Source: Escherichia coli (GTDB taxonomy: Bacteria; Pseudomonadota; Gammaproteobacteria; Enterobacterales; Enterobacteriaceae). From it: a stretch of 64,000 nt of DNA. The position numbers and the translations under genes were made by a program. Of this stretch, positions 1-5,734 are shown piece by piece (position 1 is the first letter of the stretch; every line of letters begins with the position of its first letter). Under the pieces are notes generated by a model. That model saw nothing but the letters and a program-made list of their open reading frames with translations, was not told where the DNA came from and searched no databases. The stretch lies in assembly GCF_965641715.1 (NCBI RefSeq), contig NZ_OZ282453.1; one strand, 5' to 3'.

Positions 1-596
1 TAGGGGTAACCTGTAGGGATGTACCACCCACCTTAAAATAAAGGGGTAAAATCGCTTAGAATGCGTTACAGAGCGTCTGAGAAGCCATATTCACAGATTT
101 TACTAAAACCTCAGACTTCTAAGTGGTCTTTTTAACAGGAGGGTTCTTTCTCATGTATCACCCTCTCTTCCCGCCAAGTAAGCTACACAGACCTAGAGAA
201 TATGCCTTCACAGCATCTATATCAGGTCAGATTTAGAGGTCTTGATAGAATCTTCAAAGGTACTTGACAGATAACTATGAAGTTGTTAGGAAGGGGTGTT
301 TAACGGGGGAAGAGATACGATATAACCCGAAGGGGAGAGTATCATCTTAACAGTGATTGTAAGAGTAAAACTGAAAAGATACTTAACAGAACTACCAAGA
401 GGGAGCGATAAGACCAGAGGTAGTGACCTGTTAAACAGTTCGTTTCAAAGCTCTTAAGAGTCTGTTAAGTAAGGTCATGTGAACAATCATATCATTTTGT
501 CAATGCTTTTGTCTTTGACCTAAATCAATAAAATGTATCGTTTGATGTGCTTTTAAACAAAATAGTTAAAAATCTTTTTAGAGGGGCGCTTCGCTT

Positions 597-1265
597 GTGT
601 CACATCCAATAATCCATATCGGTCGTTATCATGGTGGTTCTGATGACTGGCGTACACCGTATCGTCTATTTCATAACCTGCATCGTGAGTATAGCTTCAG
701 TCTAGATGGCGCTGCAACTGAGCATGACGCATTGTTGCCACGGTTCACCGATGATATAAACCGTCAATCATGGGTTGGTGAACGGGTCTTCGTTAACCCG
801 CCGTTTAGCATGGCTGAACAGTTCCTCGCAAAAGCCCCTGAAGCTGATGTGTGTGTATGTCTGGTTCCGCACAGGTCAAAGACAACTTACTGGCTTCGGT
901 GTGTATATACAAACCCCTTCCTGCATGAGATTCGAACATTACACCGAGCGGTTAAATACCTTCCACCAGCAGGAAAGAGAGGTGTTGTAGCGCGTTCACC
1001 ATTTGCAAGCTGTGTTTTGATATACAGGAACACACCCCGTAAACCGAAGGTTGAAATTACCCAGACAATCTATTGTGGCGACACAATGCTTTTACTTGCC
1101 GTGGTTAATAGGGGTGGTTTACGTGGAAGACCTCATATACACGATGCACAGACGCTTGACAGGTTGATTAAAATGCATGACCAAGGGCAATCCGTCAAGA
1201 GTATCGCAGAATCGCTAAGAATGCCTCTAAGCACCACTTACAGGATTGTTCAAAGGTTGAGCTAA
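597..1265 (+). CDS. Phage Dam-family DNA N6-adenine methyltransferase with C-terminal HTH-like segment
   Basis: GTG start with GAGGGG RBS about 11 nt upstream; WRTP...GERVFVNPPFS motif typical of phage Dam-type MTases; C-terminal QSVKSIAESLRMPLSTTYRIVQRL resembles an HTH. Confidence 0.6.
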   Translation: MSHPIIHIGRYHGGSDDWRTPYRLFHNLHREYSFSLDGAATEHDALLPRFTDDINRQSWVGERVFVNPPFSMAEQFLAKAPEADVCVCLVPHRSKTTYWLRCVYTNPFLHEIRTLHRAVKYLPPAGKRGVVARSPFASCVLIYRNTPRKPKVEITQTIYCGDTMLLLAVVNRGGLRGRPHIHDAQTLDRLIKMHDQGQSVKSIAESLRMPLSTTYRIVQRLS

Positions 1266-1300
1266 AATTCTCATATAGAGCACTGATTATGAGAATGTTA

Positions 1301-1333
1301 AAGAGGCGATTTCCCCTTTCTGGGGTTATTCGC
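1301..1333 (+). repeat. About 30-nt element containing CCCCTTTCTGGGG hairpin followed by T-run (copy 1); possible MTase terminator
   Basis: aagaggcgatttcccctttctggggttattcgcttttt; a near copy occurs at 1521..1552. Confidence 0.4.
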
Positions 1334-1520
1334 TTTTTACTGGAAGGGTTATTTTACAGAGGTTTTTCAAACCCCCTCAATAATAAAAAACGAGCAACAA
1401 ACGAAGAGCGAGAAATAAAATATTGAGACTGGTGAACGGGGTCTGTAAAGATTGTTTAAGAAGTCGGTTTAGGGATTGGTAGATGATTCGGATGAAGCAT
1501 CCTCATAACAATACCAATTA

Positions 1521-1552
1521 GAAGGTGGCTCTCCCTTTCTGGGGATATCGCC
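1521..1552 (+). repeat. About 30-nt element containing CCCTTTCTGGGG hairpin (copy 2)
   Basis: gaaggtggctctccctttctggggatatcgcc, similar to 1301..1333. Confidence 0.4.
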
Positions 1553-1575
1553 TTGTATCTTAGTGAGTCCAGGAA

Positions 1576-1760
1576 GTTCTCTGTGAAGGGACTTGTCAGT
1601 CCTTTATATTGGCTAATTACAACTTATTGAAAAATAAGCATTTTTAGAAATCACTGTTAAGGTTACAGAGTTCTCTGTGAAGAGACTCGTCAGCTCTCTA
1701 TATTGGCTAATTACAACTCATTGAAAAATAAGCATTTTTAGAAATTGCTGTCAGAGAGGT
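1576..1760. repeat. Tandem direct repeat, 2 copies of about 94 bp (about 90 percent identical)
   Basis: gttctctgtgaag(g/a)gact(t/c)gtcag...tattggctaattacaac...ttgaaaaataagcatttttagaaat occurs at 1576 and again at 1670. Confidence 0.8.
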
Positions 1761-1833
1761 GAGTACTTGATAGATACAGCTTTCCGGTTCTGTCAAGATA
1801 TTTTTTAATAGATAGCACAAAATGCTAAAGATA

Positions 1834-1863
1834 CCCCTATACCATCACGTACAGGGGGTTTTG
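1834..1863 (+). terminator. Hairpin plus T-run (intrinsic terminator-like), between repeat region and minus-strand small genes
   Basis: cccctataccatcacgtacaggggg followed by ttttg. Confidence 0.35.
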
Positions 1864-1871
1864 AAGGGAGT

Positions 1872-2060
1872 TTAACGGGGTTCTGTGTGGTTATCTGTTC
1901 TGGTCCTGTCCTTGAGGTCAAATGACCATTCACGACCAAACAATCTGAACACGATAAACACCCGAACGATGAAATAGCGGAGCAGAAGACCTGCAATCAG
2001 CCCAACACCTCCACCAGCCCATACATCAGGTGACCCCAGCTCAGGAGGGAGATTTACCAT
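1872..2060 (-). CDS. Small predicted membrane protein (62 aa), unknown function
   Basis: Internal ATG with AGGAA RBS; single hydrophobic helix WAGGGVGLIAGLLLRYFIVRVFIVF; start overlaps the stop of the upstream 34-aa ORF (TAATG). Confidence 0.35.
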   Translation of the reverse strand: MVNLPPELGSPDVWAGGGVGLIAGLLLRYFIVRVFIVFRLFGREWSFDLKDRTRTDNHTEPR

Positions 2061-2164
2061 TAAATTTCCTGTGTGCAATGCAATACCATGTGACATACAT
2101 AGTTGATTCGGTTAGTTGGGCTTGTACCAACCCCTATCGAATAAACCTCATAGCCACGCTTCAT
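2060..2164 (-). CDS. Small ORF (34 aa) translationally coupled to the 62-aa membrane protein
   Basis: ATG preceded by GAGGGGGAA RBS immediately downstream of a minus-strand promoter; MKRGYEVYSIGVGTSPTNRINYVCHMVLHCTQEI. Confidence 0.25.
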   Translation of the reverse strand: MKRGYEVYSIGVGTSPTNRINYVCHMVLHCTQEI

Positions 2165-2186
2165 ATTTCCCCCTCTCTCATAAACC

Positions 2187-2216
2187 ATTATACCACAAAT
2201 GTTACGAAATTGTTAA
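2187..2216 (-). promoter_or_regulatory. Sigma70-like promoter (TTAACA, 18 nt spacer, TATAAT) on minus strand
   Basis: Reverse complement reads ttaacaatttcgtaacatttgtggtataat; drives the 34-aa and 62-aa ORFs. Confidence 0.45.
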
Positions 2217-2222
2217 AAATAC

Positions 2223-2251
2223 TTGACATTAGTCTTTGAAAATGCTAGTAT
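2223..2251 (+). promoter_or_regulatory. Sigma70-like promoter (TTGACA, 17 nt spacer, TAGTAT) on plus strand
   Basis: ttgacattagtctttgaaaatgctagtat, about 50 nt upstream of the 2300 operon; back to back with the minus-strand promoter. Confidence 0.45.
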
Positions 2252-2299
2252 TGTATATAAGTTAACAGAGAATTAACAATTATAAGGACTAGCTTATGA

Positions 2300-2857
2300 A
2301 TGAACGACAGAGAATTTAGAGCGATGCTTCAGGCATCGAGACAACGTAACAGATACAACTCCTACAGCTACACAGACACCCCCACCAGCTACGAACTACC
2401 CAAGCTCACCAGAGCAGAACGCAAAGGCCTTGATGAATTAATTCGTAGCATTACGCCACGAGATAGATTTATGCCAACCAGAAAGAGCACGAAGAACACT
2501 ATTAAAAATTATCTGGCTAACTTTGACAGCTACGAACAATTACCAAGTAAGCTTGATGATGTAATTATCGGATTCTGTAGAAGTGAAGGTCACCCGAAAT
2601 ACAACAAAAAACTATTTTATCTTCTAAAGAATCTTGACGAAATTAACTCAGCCACCGTGACAAATCATCTTCAGCGTCAAGCAACCAGACTTAGCCATGA
2701 ATTACCAAGCGATAAATATTGCGCTTTGCTTGCTGTAATGTGCGCAAAGTTAATTGGTGTTGTTGAGCATCATATTGCCGTTGGAAATATTGAGCCAATG
2801 GAAAACGAGCAACCAGATTTCGAGTTTGACCCGTATTTAGTTACAGAGGAATTTTAA
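2300..2857 (+). CDS. Hypothetical phage protein (185 aa)
   Basis: ORF with AAGGA RBS; first gene of a coupled operon; no recognisable motif. Confidence 0.5.
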   Translation: MNDREFRAMLQASRQRNRYNSYSYTDTPTSYELPKLTRAERKGLDELIRSITPRDRFMPTRKSTKNTIKNYLANFDSYEQLPSKLDDVIIGFCRSEGHPKYNKKLFYLLKNLDEINSATVTNHLQRQATRLSHELPSDKYCALLAVMCAKLIGVVEHHIAVGNIEPMENEQPDFEFDPYLVTEEF

Positions 2858-3136
2858 ATGAAGAAACACACTTTGACCCGTATTTCAGAAGAAGCCTTTC
2901 ACGAGCTTACCCGAATTAAACAGACAACTAACCTCCCTCATCAAACTGTTATGCAGCTTGCAATTGCTAAAGAGGTTACTGAGTCGGATTTACTGAAATA
3001 TCCAGTCTCTAAAGGTCGTAAGCACATCCGAATTACTCAGGACGCTTTAGATACTTTGAAGGCACTTAACAACTTTAAAATTGATATCGCCCGACTATTG
3101 AGTATTAAGATTCACAAGTTAGCAATGGGGGTTTAA
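2858..3136 (+). CDS. Hypothetical protein (92 aa), possible ribbon-helix-helix DNA-binding fold
   Basis: ATG directly after upstream stop; N-terminal HTLTRISEEAFHELTRIKQ...QTVMQLAIAKEV fits a strand-helix-helix pattern (inference). Confidence 0.4.
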   Translation: MKKHTLTRISEEAFHELTRIKQTTNLPHQTVMQLAIAKEVTESDLLKYPVSKGRKHIRITQDALDTLKALNNFKIDIARLLSIKIHKLAMGV

Positions 3137-3351
3137 TGCTATGCGTTACCTTTGAATACCACACGGATAAAATGATTCGCTACATCTCCGACCTCCTGAT
3201 TGAAGGAAACGGATTCGGTGACATCCATAACTCAAAAGATATTTTCATTAAAGCCATTGGCCCAAATGAAGTACTGAAAACAGCAGTTAAACCGGAATGG
3301 TTTGAGCGTCACAAGATTGAATTAGGTTATTGGGGTGAGGAGGTTTTATGA
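3136..3351 (+). CDS. Hypothetical protein (71 aa)
   Basis: TAATG overlap with upstream gene; no recognisable motif. Confidence 0.4.
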   Translation: MLCVTFEYHTDKMIRYISDLLIEGNGFGDIHNSKDIFIKAIGPNEVLKTAVKPEWFERHKIELGYWGEEVL

Positions 3352-3635
3352 AACCTTGGCATGAAGATGTTAGACGATATTTTACAGAACACCTTATCTA
3401 TGATGAATCCAGTGATTCCCTGTGCTGGTCTGATGGAGAGTCAGTCACGATAAACACCGACGACTACGGCAACAAAACATTTAATATAGGCCGATATACT
3501 TTCTACGTGAAATATGTTGTCTGGTTCCTTTATCATGGCTATCAATCCAACAAGCAAATTATCCATCGAAATGGTAACAGAGCCGATACCAGACCAAAAA
3601 ATCTTATGCAAGTCCGAGACTTTAAGAGAAATTAG
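3348..3635 (+). CDS. Small HNH-family endonuclease (95 aa)
   Basis: ATGA overlap with upstream gene, GAGGAGG RBS; motif IHRNGNRADTRPKNL resembles the HNH_3-type H-x-NGN-x-D-x-R-x-x-NL signature. Confidence 0.55.
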   Translation: MKPWHEDVRRYFTEHLIYDESSDSLCWSDGESVTINTDDYGNKTFNIGRYTFYVKYVVWFLYHGYQSNKQIIHRNGNRADTRPKNLMQVRDFKRN

Positions 3636-3642
3636 AAAAACA

Positions 3643-3766
3643 GCTTCTCAGACGCTCTCAATCGCATTCTAACGCAAAAAACTATCTTATTTTAGGGTGG
3701 GTAATACCACTGTACAGGCTACCCCTGAAAAAGACTGTTTAGCTCGTTACAGAGCGATTGAGGAGG
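3643..3766. promoter_or_regulatory. Inverted pair of operator-like 10-bp-periodic motifs flanking about 75 bp upstream of the 3792 gene
   Basis: 3643..3672 (minus orientation) reads ttagaatgcgattgagagcgtctgagaagc; 3745..3766 reads cgttacagagcgattgaggagg; both are related to 56..85. Confidence 0.4.
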
Positions 3767-3791
3767 TCTGGTAAAAAGGAGATTTTAAGAA

Positions 3792-4121
3792 ATGAGAGAA
3801 TTAAACTTCCCACTACAGATTTTTATTGATACCGACACCGCCATGATGATTCAGGCTTTCACTGATGTAGGTGTTAGCATTGACTTTGATAAGTTGTTAG
3901 AGTTAATGACTGATAATGCGGAAAGCATCTCTGACTTTATTCAGTCGGTGGAGTTTAACGAGCCTCGAATGATGCTACCAATTAAAGACAGCAACATGAA
4001 AAGATTGGTTATCGAGCAAACGAACAAATTCAGCGTTAGCCCTGAAAAATATCTCAAGGCGGCTATAGCAATTTTGTACGCTGACAATATTTTGGTGACG
4101 GATTCGAAGGTGGTGCATTAA
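3792..4121 (+). CDS. Hypothetical acidic protein (109 aa)
   Basis: AAGGAG RBS; no recognisable motif. Confidence 0.5.
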   Translation: MRELNFPLQIFIDTDTAMMIQAFTDVGVSIDFDKLLELMTDNAESISDFIQSVEFNEPRMMLPIKDSNMKRLVIEQTNKFSVSPEKYLKAAIAILYADNILVTDSKVVH

Positions 4122-4186
4122 TGGAATTGGTGATTATCTGTTTTGTATTGATTGGTATGATTGCAGGTGCATCTATTAAAGTATAA
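4121..4186 (+). CDS. Tiny hydrophobic peptide (21 aa, MELVIICFVLIGMIAGASIKV), translationally coupled
   Basis: ATG overlaps TAA of upstream gene (TAATG); entirely hydrophobic single-helix peptide. Confidence 0.25.
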   Translation: MELVIICFVLIGMIAGASIKV

Positions 4187-4211
4187 ATGTTACCAATCTG
4201 TTAAAAATCTG

Positions 4212-4240
4212 TTGACAAATAACCTTGAGCATGACATAAT
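4212..4240 (+). promoter_or_regulatory. Near-consensus sigma70 promoter (TTGACA, 17 nt spacer, CATAAT)
   Basis: ttgacaaataaccttgagcatgacataat. Confidence 0.55.
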
Positions 4241-4246
4241 TGTATA

Positions 4247-4503
4247 TATATGAGGATAGTCTTCTATCCGAAGTCTATAGGGAGAGCAATTCTCCTTGAA
4301 TTAAAATATTAATCATCTCTACATCAATGATAACTATATTCTGAGTTGGTGAGGTATGTTCTATACCGAACATTCTGAAAGGTGCAATGCTTTTCGTCAT
4401 GGCCTTTCAGTTTAGTCTGAGAGGCTATCTCAAAAAGTGCTTAATCATTCATTCATTGAATCCTTTACAGCTTTGCCCTAATCATGAGTTAGGGCGTTTC
4501 TTT
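4247..4503 (+). ncRNA. Candidate small RNA or structured leader (about 255 nt) from promoter to first intrinsic terminator
   Basis: No ORF of 60 aa or more in about 460 nt; several stable hairpins (4254..4269, 4356..4373); ends at terminator 4475..4503. Confidence 0.3.
4475..4503 (+). terminator. Intrinsic terminator (7-bp GC-containing stem plus T-run)
   Basis: gccctaatcatgagttagggc then gtttcttt. Confidence 0.5.
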
Positions 4504-4574
4504 AAGAGTTTTAAGCAGAGCTTTTAAAGAAAGTTTTTCCTGAAACTTCGTTAACGTTATAAAGCAAACCTTCA

Positions 4575-4610
4575 AAGCCCTTCACAGATTCAATGTTTAG
4601 GGCTTTTCTT
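4575..4610 (+). terminator. Second hairpin plus T-run (terminator-like)
   Basis: aagcccttcacagattcaatgtttagggctt then ttctt. Confidence 0.4.
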
Positions 4611-4707
4611 AATAGAGCATCTTTAATAAATCGTTAAGTCATCTTCTAAGTGTATTGGCGTTGAAGGTGCTCTGTTAAGAAATAAACCACACTTAGAGGA
4701 AGTTATA

Positions 4708-5418
4708 ATGACAAACGATTTATATATTAACGGTAAAAAGGTTGATAGCTTCGGTGACTGGTCGCCACAGACTGAACATCCAGCTATCACTATTCAGCGC
4801 AAAGAACACGATGAAAGAATTGCACTTGAGCAAGAAATCCGAATGTCACCAAAGGTAATTTCCTTTGTGGCTCCTGAGCCTCAAGATATGCCGGATATTT
4901 GCAAAACTGAAGCATTGCTTGAGCTTGAAAAGAAATTTTACCCAGCTTTAAAAGCACAGCGTCTTAAACTAGATGACGCTTACAGTAAAGTTACCCTGAT
5001 GCAATCAGCTATTGAGCCATCAGAATTTGAGATTCAGGATGAATTGTCACAGAAACCATTTGTCTATTACCAATATGAAGACAATGATGGTTTTGGTACT
5101 TTTCCTGAGAATATCCCAGACGTGATTAATAATCCGATGGATGGATATCGAATTGTGAAGATGGTTAAGGCATCAAGAGGTGCTGGTCAGTTTATTTACA
5201 TGACTAATAAGAGCGATGAAGAACTCGCTGAACTTGCTAGACAGAACATCTTGGCATCACGTAACAAGCAGCTTGATAATGTTAAGTTGTATCTCTCAAG
5301 AGAGCTTCAGGCTATGAAAGACCTTGTGAAAGAATATGAAGATGCTAAGAAGATTGCTATGCAAGCCGATATTGAGCAGTTAGTGAAGATTTCTAGCAAA
5401 TATGCAAAGGCTATTTAA
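4708..5418 (+). CDS. Hypothetical phage protein (236 aa), charged with coiled-coil-like C-terminus
   Basis: GAGGAAG RBS; first gene of a co-directional module ending at 8794. Confidence 0.5.
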   Translation: MTNDLYINGKKVDSFGDWSPQTEHPAITIQRKEHDERIALEQEIRMSPKVISFVAPEPQDMPDICKTEALLELEKKFYPALKAQRLKLDDAYSKVTLMQSAIEPSEFEIQDELSQKPFVYYQYEDNDGFGTFPENIPDVINNPMDGYRIVKMVKASRGAGQFIYMTNKSDEELAELARQNILASRNKQLDNVKLYLSRELQAMKDLVKEYEDAKKIAMQADIEQLVKISSKYAKAI

Positions 5419-5437
5419 TTATGATGTGAGGTGAAGA

Positions 5438-5653
5438 ATGATTGATTTAACTGAACGCTATGAAGTTATTAAGTCTGTTTGTGAGAACTTAAAGCTTCAG
5501 ACTAAACCAAAGCTACGAATTAAAAATCAGCATCAAGTTATCACCTCACACAAACCAAAGGTTAGAAGGATTCCTTCATGGTGTATTGACCGTGTTCCTG
5601 CTGATGCTCAATTAATTGGTGAGTCTGGTTCTTACACTTATATCCTTCATTAA
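5438..5653 (+). CDS. Hypothetical phage protein (71 aa)
   Basis: GAGGTGAAG RBS; immediately upstream of the tape-measure-like gene. Confidence 0.45.
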   Translation: MIDLTERYEVIKSVCENLKLQTKPKLRIKNQHQVITSHKPKVRRIPSWCIDRVPADAQLIGESGSYTYILH

Positions 5654-5734
5654 AAATTACAAAGGGGAGAGATTAGCCTTAATTGGTTAGTCTTTCCCTT
5701 TTTCGTATATGAACACTTAAGAGGTGAAACATGA

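What the first reader, a model, noticed from the sequence alone, without database searches (positions are those of the whole stretch)
1576..1760. Two tandem 94-bp direct repeats in an ORF-free kilobase
Two about 90 percent identical 94-bp units sit head to tail in a region with no credible plus-strand ORF. Each unit has AT-rich tracts and a short internal hairpin. Iteron-type origin, packaging or recombination site, or a repeat-containing ncRNA are all plausible; the unit length does not fit CRISPR or type III ToxI repeats.
Basis: seen in the sequence. Interest (0 to 1): 0.5.

Follow-up and report, generated by a model that had tools for sequence, protein, structure and literature searches.

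The report
IHF-centred DNA repeats in phage satellite
The two 94-bp repeats are real, conserved, non-coding DNA modules, each built around a likely IHF bending site, in the control region of an apparently undescribed E. coli mobile island that looks like a parasite (satellite) of Felix-O1-type phages; they are most likely a protein-docking site for replication or packaging, not an RNA gene.

Summary
Units at 1575-1668 and 1669-1762 are about 90-92% identical and sit head to tail, with no plus-strand ORF.

The window is E. coli chromosome. Positions 1 to about 10539 are most of an ~11.2-kb, 39%-GC integrative element in wrbA. It carries a large serine recombinase, an HNH gene, and tape-measure and Dit-like tail genes related to Felixounavirus. 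It has no capsid, terminase or recognisable replicase gene. A metagenome contig shows the excised circle.

The repeat region occurs in 419 of 5426 complete E. coli genomes and in E. albertii. Copy number is 1 (30 loci), 2 (54) or 3 (1).

Across 105 unique units about 75% of columns are near-invariant. The centre reads, on the minus strand, A4-6, 8-9 nt, TTTCAA, N4, TTG. This is the layout of an IHF site, and variation falls on the N positions. The arms carry CTGTNAAG, a word 25-fold enriched in the element's ORF-free region and crowded in the helper's terminal-repeat region.

The units show no RNA structure signal, no Rfam hit, no coding potential and no homolog in a helper genome.

Best reading: an IHF-bent protein-docking module, most likely the origin or a replication enhancer. 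Packaging and regulatory roles remain open.

The parts
1575..1668 (.). 94-bp repeat unit 1 ('first' type; ends ...ACTGTTAAGGTTACAG)
1669..1762 (.). 94-bp repeat unit 2 ('last' type; ends ...GCTGTCAGAGAGGTGA)
1620..1645 (-). IHF-type site of unit 1: AAAAA-TGCTTATT-TTTCAA-TAAG-TTG (A-tract, 8 nt, WATCAR-like hexamer, N4, TTR)
   Evidence: The pattern hits 3 times in 64 kb against 0.21 expected. It is kept in 105 of 108 unique units, with 10 different N4 sequences and 17 different spacers. Consensus taken from bioRxiv 10.1101/382655.
1714..1739 (-). IHF-type site of unit 2: AAAAA-TGCTTATT-TTTCAA-TGAG-TTG
1581..1588 (+). CTGTGAAG, invariant left-arm word of unit 1 (CTGTNAAG family)
1586..1604 (.). 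Variable mini-palindrome of unit 1 (AAGGGACT TGTC AGTCCTTT). Only CT..CAG is invariant across the family.
1654..1661 (+). CTGTTAAG, right-arm word of unit 1. It also reads as a -35-like TTAACA on the minus strand.
1675..1682 (+). CTGTGAAG, left-arm word of unit 2
1680..1698 (.). Variable mini-palindrome of unit 2 (AGAGACT CGTC AGCTCTCT, bulged)
1748..1755 (+). CTGTCAGA, degenerate right-arm word of unit 2
1763..1870 (.). Conserved 108-bp flank with three hairpins: inverted word pair CTTGATAG/CTGTCAAG (1766-1797), TAGCA/TGCTA (1813-1827), and a bidirectional terminator (1834-1857)
   Evidence: z = -3.05 (+ strand) and -3.81 (- strand). Terminator. Conservation.
1524..1555 (+). Terminator-like hairpin (GGTGGCTCTCCCTTTCTGGGGATATCGCC + TTGTATCTT) just upstream of the repeats. 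A related hairpin occurs in the helper's non-coding region.
   Evidence: Read from the sequence
1470..1523 (.). 54-bp stem-loop 98% identical to the terminal non-coding region of Felixounavirus phages NBEco004/005 (94.5% to EC106)
206..469 (.). Left cluster of the same word in opposite orientation (CTTNACAG at 206, 263, 346, 382; flip near 430; CTGTTAAG at 462). It includes 399-432, which is homologous to the interior of the helper terminal repeat.
1872..2060 (-). Small conserved membrane-protein gene (62 aa from MVNLPPELG...). Promoter at 2216-2187, terminator at 1857-1834.
2187..2251 (.). Divergent sigma-70-type promoters (minus: TTAACA-18-TATAAT; plus: TTGACA-17-TAGTAT), flanked by TGTTAC/TGTTAA (2200, 2211) and TTAACA (2262, 2273)
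1..10539 (.). The part of the ~11.2-kb wrbA-integrated satellite-like element that lies in the window. Its left ~1 kb is outside the window; the attR core GTGCTTT is at 10533-10539.

Best explanation
Each 94-bp unit is a cis-acting, protein-binding DNA module. It is not a gene for a protein or a structured RNA.

The modules lie in the ~2.5-3-kb non-coding control region of an ~11.2-kb integrative element. That element has the hallmarks of a satellite of Felix-O1-like virulent myoviruses and resembles the Vibrio satellite PLE in layout.

Proposed mechanism:
1. The host protein IHF binds the centre of each unit, which reads A-tract, 8-9 nt, TTTCAA, N4, TTG on the minus strand, and bends the DNA sharply.
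2. The bend brings the left arm (CTGTGAAG, a CT..CAG mini-palindrome, TATAT(AT)GG) next to the right arm (CTGTTAAG or CTGTCAGAG).
3. A protein that recognises the CTGTNAAG word then assembles on both arms. The same word family crowds the helper phage's terminal-repeat region, so this protein could be helper-encoded.
4. The most likely purpose of the complex is to act as the element's replication origin or replication enhancer during helper infection. Close analogies are the repeat-bearing non-coding region that holds the PLE origin, and the two ~120-bp direct repeats of the P4 crr.

What is shown:
- The repeat, its conservation and its variation in copy number.
- The IHF-type sequence layout and the selection pattern on it.
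- The enrichment of the word and its sharing with the helper region.
- The mobile, excising, phage-related nature of the element.

What is inferred:
- That IHF binds.
- That a CTGTNAAG-binding protein exists.
- Satellite status and helper identity.
- The origin role.

My probabilities are about 0.65 for 'IHF-centred protein-docking DNA module' and about 0.35 for the origin or replication-enhancer role specifically.
For: Conservation and copy number
- The units are conserved as head-to-tail repeats in at least 85 loci: 2 copies in 54, 1 in 30, 3 in 1.
- The region occurs in 419 of 5426 complete E. coli genomes, always unannotated in the 60 records listed.
- Among 105 unique units about three quarters of columns are at least 98% invariant. 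Variation is confined to the mini-palindrome arms, three positions inside CAAC-NNN-TTG, and 3 nt between AAG and TTTT.

IHF-type site
- The variable positions are the non-contacted positions of an IHF site. 105 of 108 units keep A4-6, N8-9, xxTCAA, N4, TTR, with 10 different N4 sequences and 17 different spacer sequences.
- Diverged units move towards the consensus: L028 has AATCAA-CGCA-TTA and L024 has CATCAA-TTGG-TTG.
- The composite pattern hits only 3 times in the 64-kb window against 0.21 expected, and two of the hits are the units.
- Consensus and A-tract role: bioRxiv 10.1101/382655. The lambda H' sequence strings were found in the literature.

The CTGTNAAG word
- CTGTNAAG/CTTNACAG occurs 11 times in 1-2300 against 0.4 +/- 0.6 in shuffles, and 14 of 19 copies in the element are intergenic.
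- The related word CTTAACA has 13 of its 35 forward copies in the phage EC106 genome inside its 1.7-kb terminal non-coding region. That region holds the 581-bp terminal repeat (PMC8303462).

Satellite context
- The element carries tape-measure and Dit-like genes homologous to EC106 (30% and 75% amino-acid identity), a large serine recombinase, and no capsid or terminase gene.
- GC content is 39%.
- It shares a 54-bp stem-loop 98% identical to the helper non-coding region.
- A 160-200-bp stretch is homologous to the helper terminal-repeat boundary.
- A circular junction was assembled from a metagenome.

Origin-type features and precedent
- The PLE origin is formed by repeats in a 2.7-kb non-coding region (PMC7145576).
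- The units lie in the second least stable 200-bp duplex window of the element.

Against an RNA reading
- No Rfam hit.
- Unit z-scores of -0.05 to -0.8 on both strands.
Against: - No experiment supports this, and IHF binding is inferred from sequence only. The hexamer is TTTCAA, not WATCAA, so position 2 mismatches.
- No replication initiator was recognised in the element with Pfam, PHROGs, NCBIfam or PADLOC.
- The units are not classical short iterons.
- The variable arms do not co-vary with any element protein.
- The helper's word-rich region may serve packaging or transcription rather than replication, so the shared word does not point specifically to an origin.
- The helper non-coding region has no IHF-type site and no unit homolog.
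- AT-rich promoter regions in the element are as easily melted as the units.
- Each unit also reads as a weak minus-strand promoter, TTAACA-18-TATTTT, so a transcriptional role is not excluded.
- Satellite status is itself unproven.
Confidence: 0.4

Rival explanations
1. Packaging-recognition module, like lambda cosB. The helper's terminase or a terminal-repeat-binding packaging protein binds the CTGTNAAG words on both sides of an IHF bend, and the helper's packaging machinery is thereby recruited to the element's DNA.
For: - The word family is concentrated in the helper's terminal-repeat region, where packaging recognition is expected.
- The layout 'repeat, IHF site, repeat' matches cosB R3-I1-R2 (established knowledge of lambda, recalled from memory).
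- The IHF-type site is strongly conserved.
- The element needs some way to be packaged and has no terminase gene.
Against: - The only stretch with real homology to the helper's terminal-repeat boundary lies about 1.6-2 kb to the left of the repeats, outside the window. That stretch is the better packaging candidate.
- The helper has no IHF-type site or unit homolog in its own terminal region.
- No small terminase subunit is identified in Felix O1 (PMC3185647).
Confidence: 0.2
2. Regulatory operator or enhancer cluster. A repressor or activator, from the element or the helper, binds the CTGTNAAG/TGTTAA words. With IHF-assisted looping it controls the divergent promoters about 450-600 bp away, keeping the element silent until helper infection, as with the IHF-assisted operator of phage Mu.
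For: - TGTTAC/TGTTAA words flank the main promoter on both sides (2200, 2211, 2262, 2273).
- The same upstream box recurs at a second promoter (2187-2220 against 4175-4208).
- Most copies of the word are intergenic.
- The element encodes a small, possibly ribbon-helix-helix-like protein (92 aa; weak DndE hit, E = 0.0013).
Against: - No regulator has been identified.
- The unit arms do not co-vary with any element protein.
- The words in the units (CTGTGAAG) differ from those at the promoters (TGTTAA).
- The distance to the promoters, and the terminator lying between them, argue against a simple operator.
Confidence: 0.2
3. Small-RNA genes. Each unit is transcribed from its minus-strand promoter-like site (TTAACA or CTGACA, 18 nt, TATTTT), or the pair is transcribed from TTGACA-18-TATCAA at 1798-1769. 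The product would be a largely unstructured regulatory RNA, as SviR is in the PLE non-coding region.
For: - Promoter-like hexamers are conserved in every unit.
- Satellites are known to encode regulatory RNAs (P4 CI RNA and PLE SviR, from memory).
- The plus strand of 1560-1870 folds better than shuffles, z = -2.8.
Against: - That z-score comes from the 108-nt flank, not the units. The units score z = -0.05 to -0.8 on both strands.
- No Rfam match.
- There is no terminator inside or directly after a unit on the minus strand.
- The hairpin is weak and inconsistent, and in one unit it is inverted.
- No complementarity longer than 13 nt to a helper genome or to the rest of the element, which is the chance level.
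- Diverged units keep the IHF pattern but lose the -10-like T (L024 has TATTCA).
Confidence: 0.1
4. Functionless duplication. A neutral tandem duplication of non-coding DNA is carried along by a successful mobile element.
For: Copy number varies from 1 to 3, and single-copy elements are common, so two copies are not required.
Against: - At least one unit is always retained where the element is intact.
- About 75% of columns are near-invariant over 105 unique variants, while the neighbouring non-coding DNA is mosaic.
- The two copies form distinct, separately conserved lineages.
- The substitution pattern is that of a constrained binding site.
Confidence: 0.05

Closest known systems
Non-coding region and origin of the Vibrio cholerae satellite PLE (helper: virulent myovirus ICP1)
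   Same: - An integrative satellite with a multi-kilobase ORF-free region that holds several repeat types, one of which is the origin (PMC7145576).
- Dependence on a helper with a T7-like polymerase and primase-helicase. Phage EC106 encodes such genes.
- A large serine recombinase as integrase. This feature of PLE is from my memory.
   Different: - PLE encodes its own RepA_N initiator, and its iterons are semi-palindromes converging on a poly-A tract. No initiator was found here.
- The units here are 94 bp and centred on an IHF-type site.
- No similarity to PLE is known; none was tested here.
- This element carries tape-measure and Dit-like tail genes.
crr (cis replication region) of satellite phage P4
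   Same: - From memory, not verified here: two direct repeats of about 120 bp.
- Each repeat carries copies of the short word that also clusters at the separate origin.
- One repeat is sufficient.
- Here: two 94-bp direct repeats carry CTGTNAAG, which also clusters at 206-469, and natural single-copy variants exist.
   Different: - P4 has the alpha primase-helicase, which binds those words. No such protein is encoded here.
- P4 repeats are separated by about 60 bp; here they abut.
- An IHF-type core is not a known crr feature.
Lambda cosB (R3-I1-R2-R1) and P1 parS
   Same: An IHF bend site flanked by repeated recognition words, so that one protein contacts both arms within roughly 90-120 bp (established knowledge). 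The unit has the same logic.
   Different: - The units are not adjacent to a known cleavage site. The terminal-repeat boundary mimic lies 1.6-2 kb away.
- No small terminase subunit or ParB homolog is present.
- The module is duplicated in tandem.
Lambda attP H' IHF site
   Same: The same three elements in the same register: an A-tract, 8 nt, a WATCAA-type hexamer, N4, TTG. Compare AAAAAAGCATTGCTTATCAATTTGTTG with TAAAAATGCTTATTTTTCAATAAGTTG.
   Different: - The hexamer is TTTCAA (position 2 is T, not A).
- The context is not an attachment site. The element uses a serine recombinase, and its att core is at 10533-10539.

Membership tests
IHF binding site | Core WATCAR-N4-TTR | tested here: inconclusive
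   The units have TTTCAA-N4-TTG, which matches 8 of the 9 specified positions; position 2 mismatches. Diverged units have AATCAA-CGCA-TTA (9 of 9) and CATCAA-TTGG-TTG.
IHF binding site | Optional A-tract of 4-6 A in the other half-site, in register as in lambda H' | tested here: met
   An A4-6 tract lies 8-9 nt upstream of the hexamer in 105 of 108 unique units. The rule is from bioRxiv 10.1101/382655.
IHF binding site | Sequence freedom at non-contacted positions, with contacted positions conserved | tested here: met
   There are 10 different N4 sequences and 17 different spacer sequences, against near-invariant TCAA and TTG.
IHF binding site | IHF actually binds and bends the DNA | not testable with these tools
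   Needs EMSA, footprinting or ChIP.
Iteron-type replication origin | Several direct repeats of about 17-22 bp bound by a cognate initiator | tested here: not met
   The units are 94 bp. The only short recurrent word is the 8-mer CTGTNAAG, with irregular spacing (138, 73, 21, 73, 42 bp).
Iteron-type replication origin | An initiator gene in the same element | tested here: inconclusive
   Pfam, PHROGs, NCBIfam and PADLOC gave no hit. ORF185 has no structural match. Several ORFs remain of unknown function.
Iteron-type replication origin | An adjacent AT-rich unwinding element and host-factor (IHF or DnaA) sites | tested here: inconclusive
   An IHF-type site is present. Positions 1614-1813 are the second least stable 200-bp window, but the promoter regions are similar. 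No conserved DnaA box was seen.
Iteron-type replication origin | Supports replication | not testable with these tools
   Needs cloning and infection assays.
Phage satellite (PLE-like) | An integrative element with its own integrase that excises precisely | tested here: met
   A large serine recombinase is encoded at 8814-10457. Contig L031 assembles as a circle with the junction ACTAGTGCTTT|TACATAGC.
Phage satellite (PLE-like) | Lacks a full set of virion and replication genes and depends on a helper | tested here: inconclusive
   The only phage-like genes are the tape-measure, Dit-like and HNH genes. Helper dependence was not tested.
Phage satellite (PLE-like) | Carries sequences that mimic the helper's cis-acting sites | tested here: met
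   A 54-bp stretch is 98% identical to the helper non-coding region. A 160-200-bp stretch is homologous to the terminal-repeat boundary, E = 1e-6 to 1e-12. The CTTAACAG word family is shared.
Phage satellite (PLE-like) | Induced, replicated and packaged by the helper | not testable with these tools
   No experimental data, and no paper was found.
Structured or repeat ncRNA (sRNA, ToxI-like) | Promoter plus terminator bounding the unit, with a conserved structure or covariation | tested here: not met
   Only weak promoter-like sites were found, and no terminator lies within the units. z-scores are -0.05 to -0.8. The hairpin is weak and variable. No Rfam hit.
Structured or repeat ncRNA (sRNA, ToxI-like) | For ToxI-type: repeats of about 36 nt next to an endoribonuclease toxin gene | tested here: not met
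   The period is 94 and the copy number is 1-3. The neighbouring gene is a 62-aa membrane protein with its own terminator.
CRISPR array | Short repeats separated by unique spacers | tested here: not met
   The units abut with no spacers.
Attachment (att) site of the element | Lies at the element's junction with the chromosome or at the circle junction | tested here: not met
   The junction core is at 10533-10539 and at L001 ~11010. The repeats are more than 2 kb away from it.

The most novel reading that the evidence does not exclude
The 94-bp units are the IHF-assisted docking site through which a previously undescribed family of enterobacterial satellites captures a DNA-binding protein of Felix-O1-type virulent phages. 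That protein would be the one that normally reads the CTTAACAG word arrays in the phage's terminal-repeat region. Capturing it would let the satellite get itself replicated or packaged, and might also titrate the protein away from the helper.

If so, this would be the first satellite-helper system for Felixounavirus. It would also be a satellite that brings its own tape-measure and baseplate-hub genes.
Probability: 0.3. Interest if true: 0.8.

Novelty: new variant of a known kind. Interest (0 to 1): 0.6.

Why it matters
Felix-O1-like phages are widely used for Salmonella and E. coli typing, biocontrol and therapy. No satellite of them was found in the searched literature.

The repeat region occurs in about 8% of complete E. 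coli genomes, and proteins of the element also occur in Shigella, Salmonella, E. albertii and E. fergusonii. If the element is such a satellite, three things follow.
- It could affect the efficacy of these phages and their host range.
- It could mobilise cargo, such as the methyltransferase carried by this copy.
- It would give a tractable E. coli counterpart to the Vibrio PLE-ICP1 system.

The repeats offer a defined, small and testable cis element: one IHF site plus one 8-mer word. They could be used to find the helper or element protein that drives satellite replication or packaging, and to learn what the unexplained word arrays in the Felixounavirus terminal repeat do.

Tried and rejected
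1. Homology of the unit to known RNAs. An Rfam E-value scan of 1-6000 gave nothing.
2. Homology to phages. BLAST of 1540-1870 against 50,697 phage records gave only chance hits. An nhmmer profile of 107 units against the whole EC106 genome gave a best E of 0.26.
3. RNA structure. RNAalifold on 48 two-copy and 16 one-copy regions gave no consistent unit structure. Per-unit z-scores were not significant. Hairpin energies are weak, and the plus strand is only slightly better, 19 against 8.
4. Antisense targets. No complementary or shared k-mer longer than 13 nt was found with EC106 or with the rest of the element, which is the chance level.
5. Coding. Frames through the unit carry stop variants, for example ACTAATTG in several units, and RefSeq has no CDS there.
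6. Search for an initiator or regulator.
   - Pfam, PHROGs, NCBIfam and PADLOC scans of 10-11 ORFs.
   - A deep search for ORF185 found a narrow family: 22 representatives at 50% identity.
7. Distant ORF185 homologs sit after large non-coding regions in phage-like contigs, but those regions have no tandem repeats.
8. Co-variation of unit arm type with alleles of 12 element proteins gave differences of about zero.
9. GC skew follows gene orientation only.
10. Rejected by eye: LexA box (CTGT-N7-ACAG, not N8); CRP (only one TGTGA half-site); conserved DnaA box (absent in the window); a res site for the small resolvase (that gene is absent from many elements that keep the units).
11. A profile-based related-loci search failed because the alignment had no conserved block.
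12. The P4 crr description could not be verified in the held library.
Full report
**1. Observation**

The repeat is real. Tandem Repeats Finder gives 1575-1745, period 94, 1.8 copies, 92% matches, no indels, score 300. The repeat finder gives 1575-1657 against 1669-1751, 90% identical, spacing 94. A profile built from the two copies places them at 1575-1666 and 1669-1761.

No plus-strand ORF of 30 aa or more crosses them. The stretch 1266-2299 is not entirely gene-free, however. A small minus-strand gene lies at 1872-2060 (62 aa from MVNLPPELG..., hydrophobic). It has a strong promoter (2216-2187, 11 of 12 consensus positions with an extended -10) and a terminator (1857-1834). It is conserved and annotated in relatives.

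**2. Where we are**

The window is E. coli chromosome. Positions 1 to about 10539 are the larger part of an ~11.2-kb island inserted in the 5' end of wrbA, between ymdF and wrbA.

- The island's left ~1 kb lies outside the window.
- The attR core GTGCTTT is at 10533-10539, and the island supplies a new N-terminus for WrbA.
- GC content is about 39%, as in Felix O1 (PMC3185647).

Genes in the window, in order:

| Position | Strand | Gene |
|---|---|---|
| 597-1265 | + | Accessory Dam-like methyltransferase with a resolvase-type HTH; absent from relatives L001 and L002 |
| 1872-2060 | - | Small membrane-protein gene |
| 2187-2251 | both | Divergent promoters |
| 2300-2857 | + | ORF of 185 aa |
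| 2858-3136 | + | ORF of 92 aa |
| 3136-3351 | + | ORF of 71 aa |
| 3348-3635 | + | ORF of 95 aa (HNH) |
| 3792-4121 | + | ORF of 109 aa |
| 4122-4707 | . | Second ORF-free stretch |
| 4708-5418 | + | ORF of 236 aa |
| 5438-5653 | + | ORF of 71 aa |
| 5735-7864 | + | Tape-measure protein |
| 8000-8794 | + | Dit-like tail/baseplate protein |
| 8814-10457 | - | Large serine recombinase |

Only the tape-measure protein (30% amino-acid identity) and the Dit-like protein (75%) have homologs in the Felixounavirus EC106. They are in the same order there as in the phage. There is no capsid, terminase or recognisable replication gene.

A metagenome contig (L031, 11,233 bp) has a 55-bp terminal overlap, and it joins the island's right end directly to its left end (...ACTAGTGCTTT|TACATAGC...). 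The island therefore exists as an excised circle or concatemer of 11,178 bp. Relatives sit at other sites (yciI-tonB, lafU) with other recombinases.

**3. Link to Felix-O1-like phages**

- A 54-bp stem-loop at 1470-1523 is 98% identical to the terminal non-coding region of phages NBEco004/005 (94.5% to EC106).
- In phage vB_EcoM_D4 the record's first 581 bp recur at its right end, which is the direct terminal repeat. A 581-bp repeat was also reported for another Felixounavirus (PMC8303462).
- This repeat lies inside a ~1.7-kb gene-free region packed with CTTAACAG/CTGTTAAG-type words. In EC106, 13 of 35 forward CTTAACA copies fall in that 2% of the genome, with a strong orientation bias.
- Island relatives carry a 160-200-bp stretch homologous to the right boundary of the phage terminal repeat (about 60% identity, E = 1e-6 to 1e-12).
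- Window 399-432 matches the interior of the repeat.

Together with the gene content, this makes the island look like a satellite of Felix-O1-like virulent phages. It resembles the Vibrio satellite PLE in architecture, with a large repeat-bearing non-coding region (PMC7145576); PLE's serine-recombinase integrase is from my memory. I found no paper linking Felixounavirus to any satellite. Satellite status is inferred, not shown.

**4. The repeat family**

The 331-bp region around the repeats occurs in 419 of 5426 complete E. coli genomes, always on chromosomes, and no feature is annotated under the match in any of the 60 records listed. Pattern scans added E. albertii, IMG/VR contigs and about 80 metagenome loci.

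- Copy number is 2 in 54 loci, 1 in 30 and 3 in 1. The units are always head to tail, with a period of 93-95.
- Single-copy units are first/last hybrids, as unequal crossing-over would produce.
- 'First' and 'last' units form separate, conserved lineages, so the duplication is old and both copies are maintained when present.
- Many E. coli alignments break exactly at 1573-1575. The unit is thus a boundary between a mosaic left part and a conserved right part.

**5. Anatomy from 105 unique units**

Near-invariant blocks, in order:

- CTGTGAAG
- CT..CAG
- TATAT(AT)TGG
- ATTACAAC
- ATTGAAAAATAAG
- TTTTAGAA
- TTACTGT

Variable positions:

- the arms of the small palindrome between CTGTGAAG and TATAT;
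- a GCTAA/GGTGA dimorphism;
- three positions in CAAC-NNN-TTG;
- 3 nt between AAG and TTTT.

Read on the minus strand, the centre is TAAAA(A), 8-9 nt, TTTCAA, N4, TTG. That is the layout of an IHF site: the consensus WATCARnnnnTTR, with an A-tract of 4-6 A in the other half-site of some sites (bioRxiv 10.1101/382655). It is in the same register as lambda H' (AAAAAAGCATTGCTTATCAATTTGTTG; these strings were confirmed to occur in the literature).

- 105 of 108 unique units keep this composite, with 10 different N4 sequences and 17 different spacer sequences, while TCAA and TTG are almost invariant.
- The most diverged units keep or improve the match: L028 has AATCAA-CGCA-TTA, and L024 and L120 have CATCAA-TTGG-TTG.
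- The composite pattern occurs 3 times in the 64-kb window against 0.21 expected. Two hits are the units. The third, at 7946-7970, directly follows a CTTAACAG between the tape-measure and Dit-like genes.

This is the substitution pattern of a constrained IHF site. Binding itself is inferred.

**6. The arms**

The word CTGTNAAG/CTTNACAG occurs 11 times in 1-2300, against 0.4 +/- 0.6 in dinucleotide shuffles (maximum 3).

- It is seven-fold denser in the rest of the island than in the flanking chromosome.
- 14 of 19 copies are intergenic.
- Its orientation flips near position 430.
- Each unit starts with CTGTGAAG and ends with CTGTTAAG, or with CTGTCAGAG in the last unit.
- The conserved flank adds an inverted pair, CTTGATAG...CTGTCAAG (1766-1797).
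- Related TGTTAC/TGTTAA words bracket the main promoter, and a second promoter at about 4213 has a similar upstream box.

The word family is the one that fills the helper's terminal-repeat region (section 3).

It is weak, from -0.1 to -8.7 kcal/mol. Some natural recombinants nearly abolish it, and one unit (L114, middle) carries it inverted. It is therefore not a strongly selected structure.

**7. What it is not**

Not coding:
- Stop-containing variants occur in the reading frames through the unit.
- No CDS is annotated there.

Not a known or structured RNA:
- There is no Rfam hit.
- Unit z-scores are -0.05 to -0.8 on both strands.
- The plus-strand z of -2.8 for 1560-1870 comes from the 108-nt flank with three hairpins, including the small gene's bidirectional terminator (z = -3.0 and -3.8).
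- There is no antisense match to a helper genome or to the island beyond chance.

Not other repeat or site classes:
- It is not the att site (section 2).
- It is not CRISPR or ToxI.
- It has no homolog in the helper genome, and the helper's non-coding region has no IHF-type site. The module is therefore the island's own invention, even though its arm words are shared with the helper.

**8. Mechanism**

The best-supported statement is that each unit is an IHF-bent DNA module. Its two arms present CTGTNAAG words to a DNA-binding protein. This is the same logic as lambda cosB (R3-I1-R2), P1 parS, the pSC101 and R6K origins, and the Mu operator, all from established knowledge. I give this about 0.65.

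For the purpose of the complex I commit to a replication origin or replication enhancer fired during helper infection, at about 0.35. The reasons are:

- The island must replicate, and the origin has no other candidate, while the packaging function has a better one: the terminal-repeat boundary mimic 1.6-2 kb to the left.
- PLE's origin is formed by repeats in its non-coding region.
- P4's crr is, from my memory, two ~120-bp direct repeats that carry the origin's word, and either repeat suffices. That matches the natural 1-3-copy variation here.
- The units sit in one of the least stable duplex windows of the island.

The weaknesses are:

- No initiator was found.
- ORF185 has no structural match.
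- The unit arms do not co-vary with any island protein.
- The shared word does not say 'replication' rather than 'packaging' or 'transcription'.

Rivals and my probabilities:

| Reading | Probability |
|---|---|
| cosB-like packaging module | 0.2 |
| Operator or enhancer for the island's promoters | 0.2 |
| Unstructured sRNA from the weak minus-strand promoter-like sites | 0.1 |
| Neutral duplication | 0.05 |

**9. Comparison and novelty**

Functionally the closest known systems are the PLE non-coding region and origin, and the P4 crr. Architecturally the closest are cosB and parS-type 'word, IHF site, word' modules.

The units are not a member of any of these families:
- They are not classical iterons.
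- There is no RepA_N or alpha-type initiator.
- They are not next to a cleavage site.

I rate the finding as a new variant of a known kind, namely a cis-acting repeat module in a satellite control region. It sits in what appears to be a new family of a known kind, namely phage satellites.

The repeat alone is of moderate interest. The context raises it:
- the element is a widespread, apparently undescribed satellite;
- its putative helper is a therapeutically used phage genus;
- it carries its own tape-measure and baseplate genes;
- it carries mimics of the helper's terminal repeat.

Overall interest: 0.6.

Noticed in passing
window 1-10539 (with L001 11000-22000; L031): The repeats sit in an ~11.2-kb, 39%-GC island integrated in the 5' end of wrbA. 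The island carries tape-measure and Dit-like genes homologous to Felixounavirus, an HNH gene and a large serine recombinase, but no capsid, terminase or replicase gene. It looks like an undescribed satellite family of Felix-O1-like phages. The repeat region is present in about 8% of complete E. coli genomes, and no paper on it was found.
   Followed up: partly
L031 (metagenome contig ERZ506742 NODE-633), junction at about 5453-5462: The contig has a 55-bp terminal overlap and joins the island's right end to its left end (ACTAGTGCTTT|TACATAGC). This is an excised circle or concatemer of 11,178 bp. Eight copies make 89.4 kb, close to the helper genome with its terminal repeat (D4, 89,439 bp).
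   Followed up: partly
window 1470-1523; L003 2266-2295 and 3001-3055; L002 6040-6080: A 54-bp stem-loop is 98% identical between the island and the terminal non-coding region of some Felixounavirus phages. 'Empty-site' versions (gggattggtaacaataccaattag) occur in phage EC106 and in island L013, and a copy in the opposite orientation occurs elsewhere in island L002. It may be a small mobile hairpin insert exchanged between helper and island.
   Followed up: partly
L002 6832-6990, L001 11763-11960 (left of the window); window 399-432: The islands carry a 160-200-bp stretch homologous to the right boundary of the helper's 581-bp direct terminal repeat, for example GGGTACTTAGCAGGTATACAT against the phage's GGGCTACC|AAGCAGATATACAT. 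They also carry a short match to the interior of the repeat. This is a candidate packaging or terminus mimic.
   Followed up: partly
phage loci L003 1455-3191, L005 1-1100, L006 1950-3040: Felixounavirus genomes have a ~1.7-kb gene-free region around the terminal repeat. It is packed with CTTAACAG/CTGTTAAG/CTAACAAG words at roughly 10-12-bp spacing, with strong orientation bias and a flip near the left terminus. I found no description of this or of its function.
   Followed up: partly
window 1872-2060 (-): A conserved 62-aa hydrophobic protein gene with its own strong promoter and terminator lies between the repeats and the main operon. Its function is unknown (possibly exclusion, a toxin, or holin-like). 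It is replaced by a different small gene in island L028.
   Followed up: no
window 597-1265 (+): A Dam-like N6-adenine methyltransferase is fused to a resolvase-type HTH (PF05869 plus PF02796). It is absent from L001 and L002 and is therefore accessory cargo. Other islands carry a small serine recombinase (resolvase or invertase) in this region.
   Followed up: partly
window 2187-2220 and 4175-4208; 4122-4707: A second ORF-free stretch of 585 bp holds a strong promoter-like site. Its upstream box (AATGTTAC-N5-TGTTAAAAAT-N3-TTGACA) is 79% identical to the box upstream of the main promoter. This is a candidate shared operator or UP element.
   Followed up: no
window 7936-7970 (+): A third A-tract plus ATCAA-N4-TTG (IHF-type) site directly follows a CTTAACAG word, between the tape-measure and Dit-like genes.
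   Followed up: no
window 10509-11114: The insertion replaces the first codons of wrb[13 protein letters not shown]... instead of MAKVLVLYY... The gene stays intact, and the original start remains at attL.
   Followed up: partly
L128 3104-3742; L129 4265-5125: Distant homologs of the island's 185-aa first-operon protein are the first gene after a ~1-1.6-kb non-coding region in phage-like contigs, one of which has a terminase and an SU10-type portal. The island protein ends in an acidic tail, ...PDFEFDPYLVTEEF. It has no structural match in the PDB.
   Followed up: partly
window 22002-22250: This stretch is 98% identical to the 'duplication due to insertion' ends of Stx1a-converting phages, that is, the torS-torT phage attachment site. 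It is unoccupied here.
   Followed up: no
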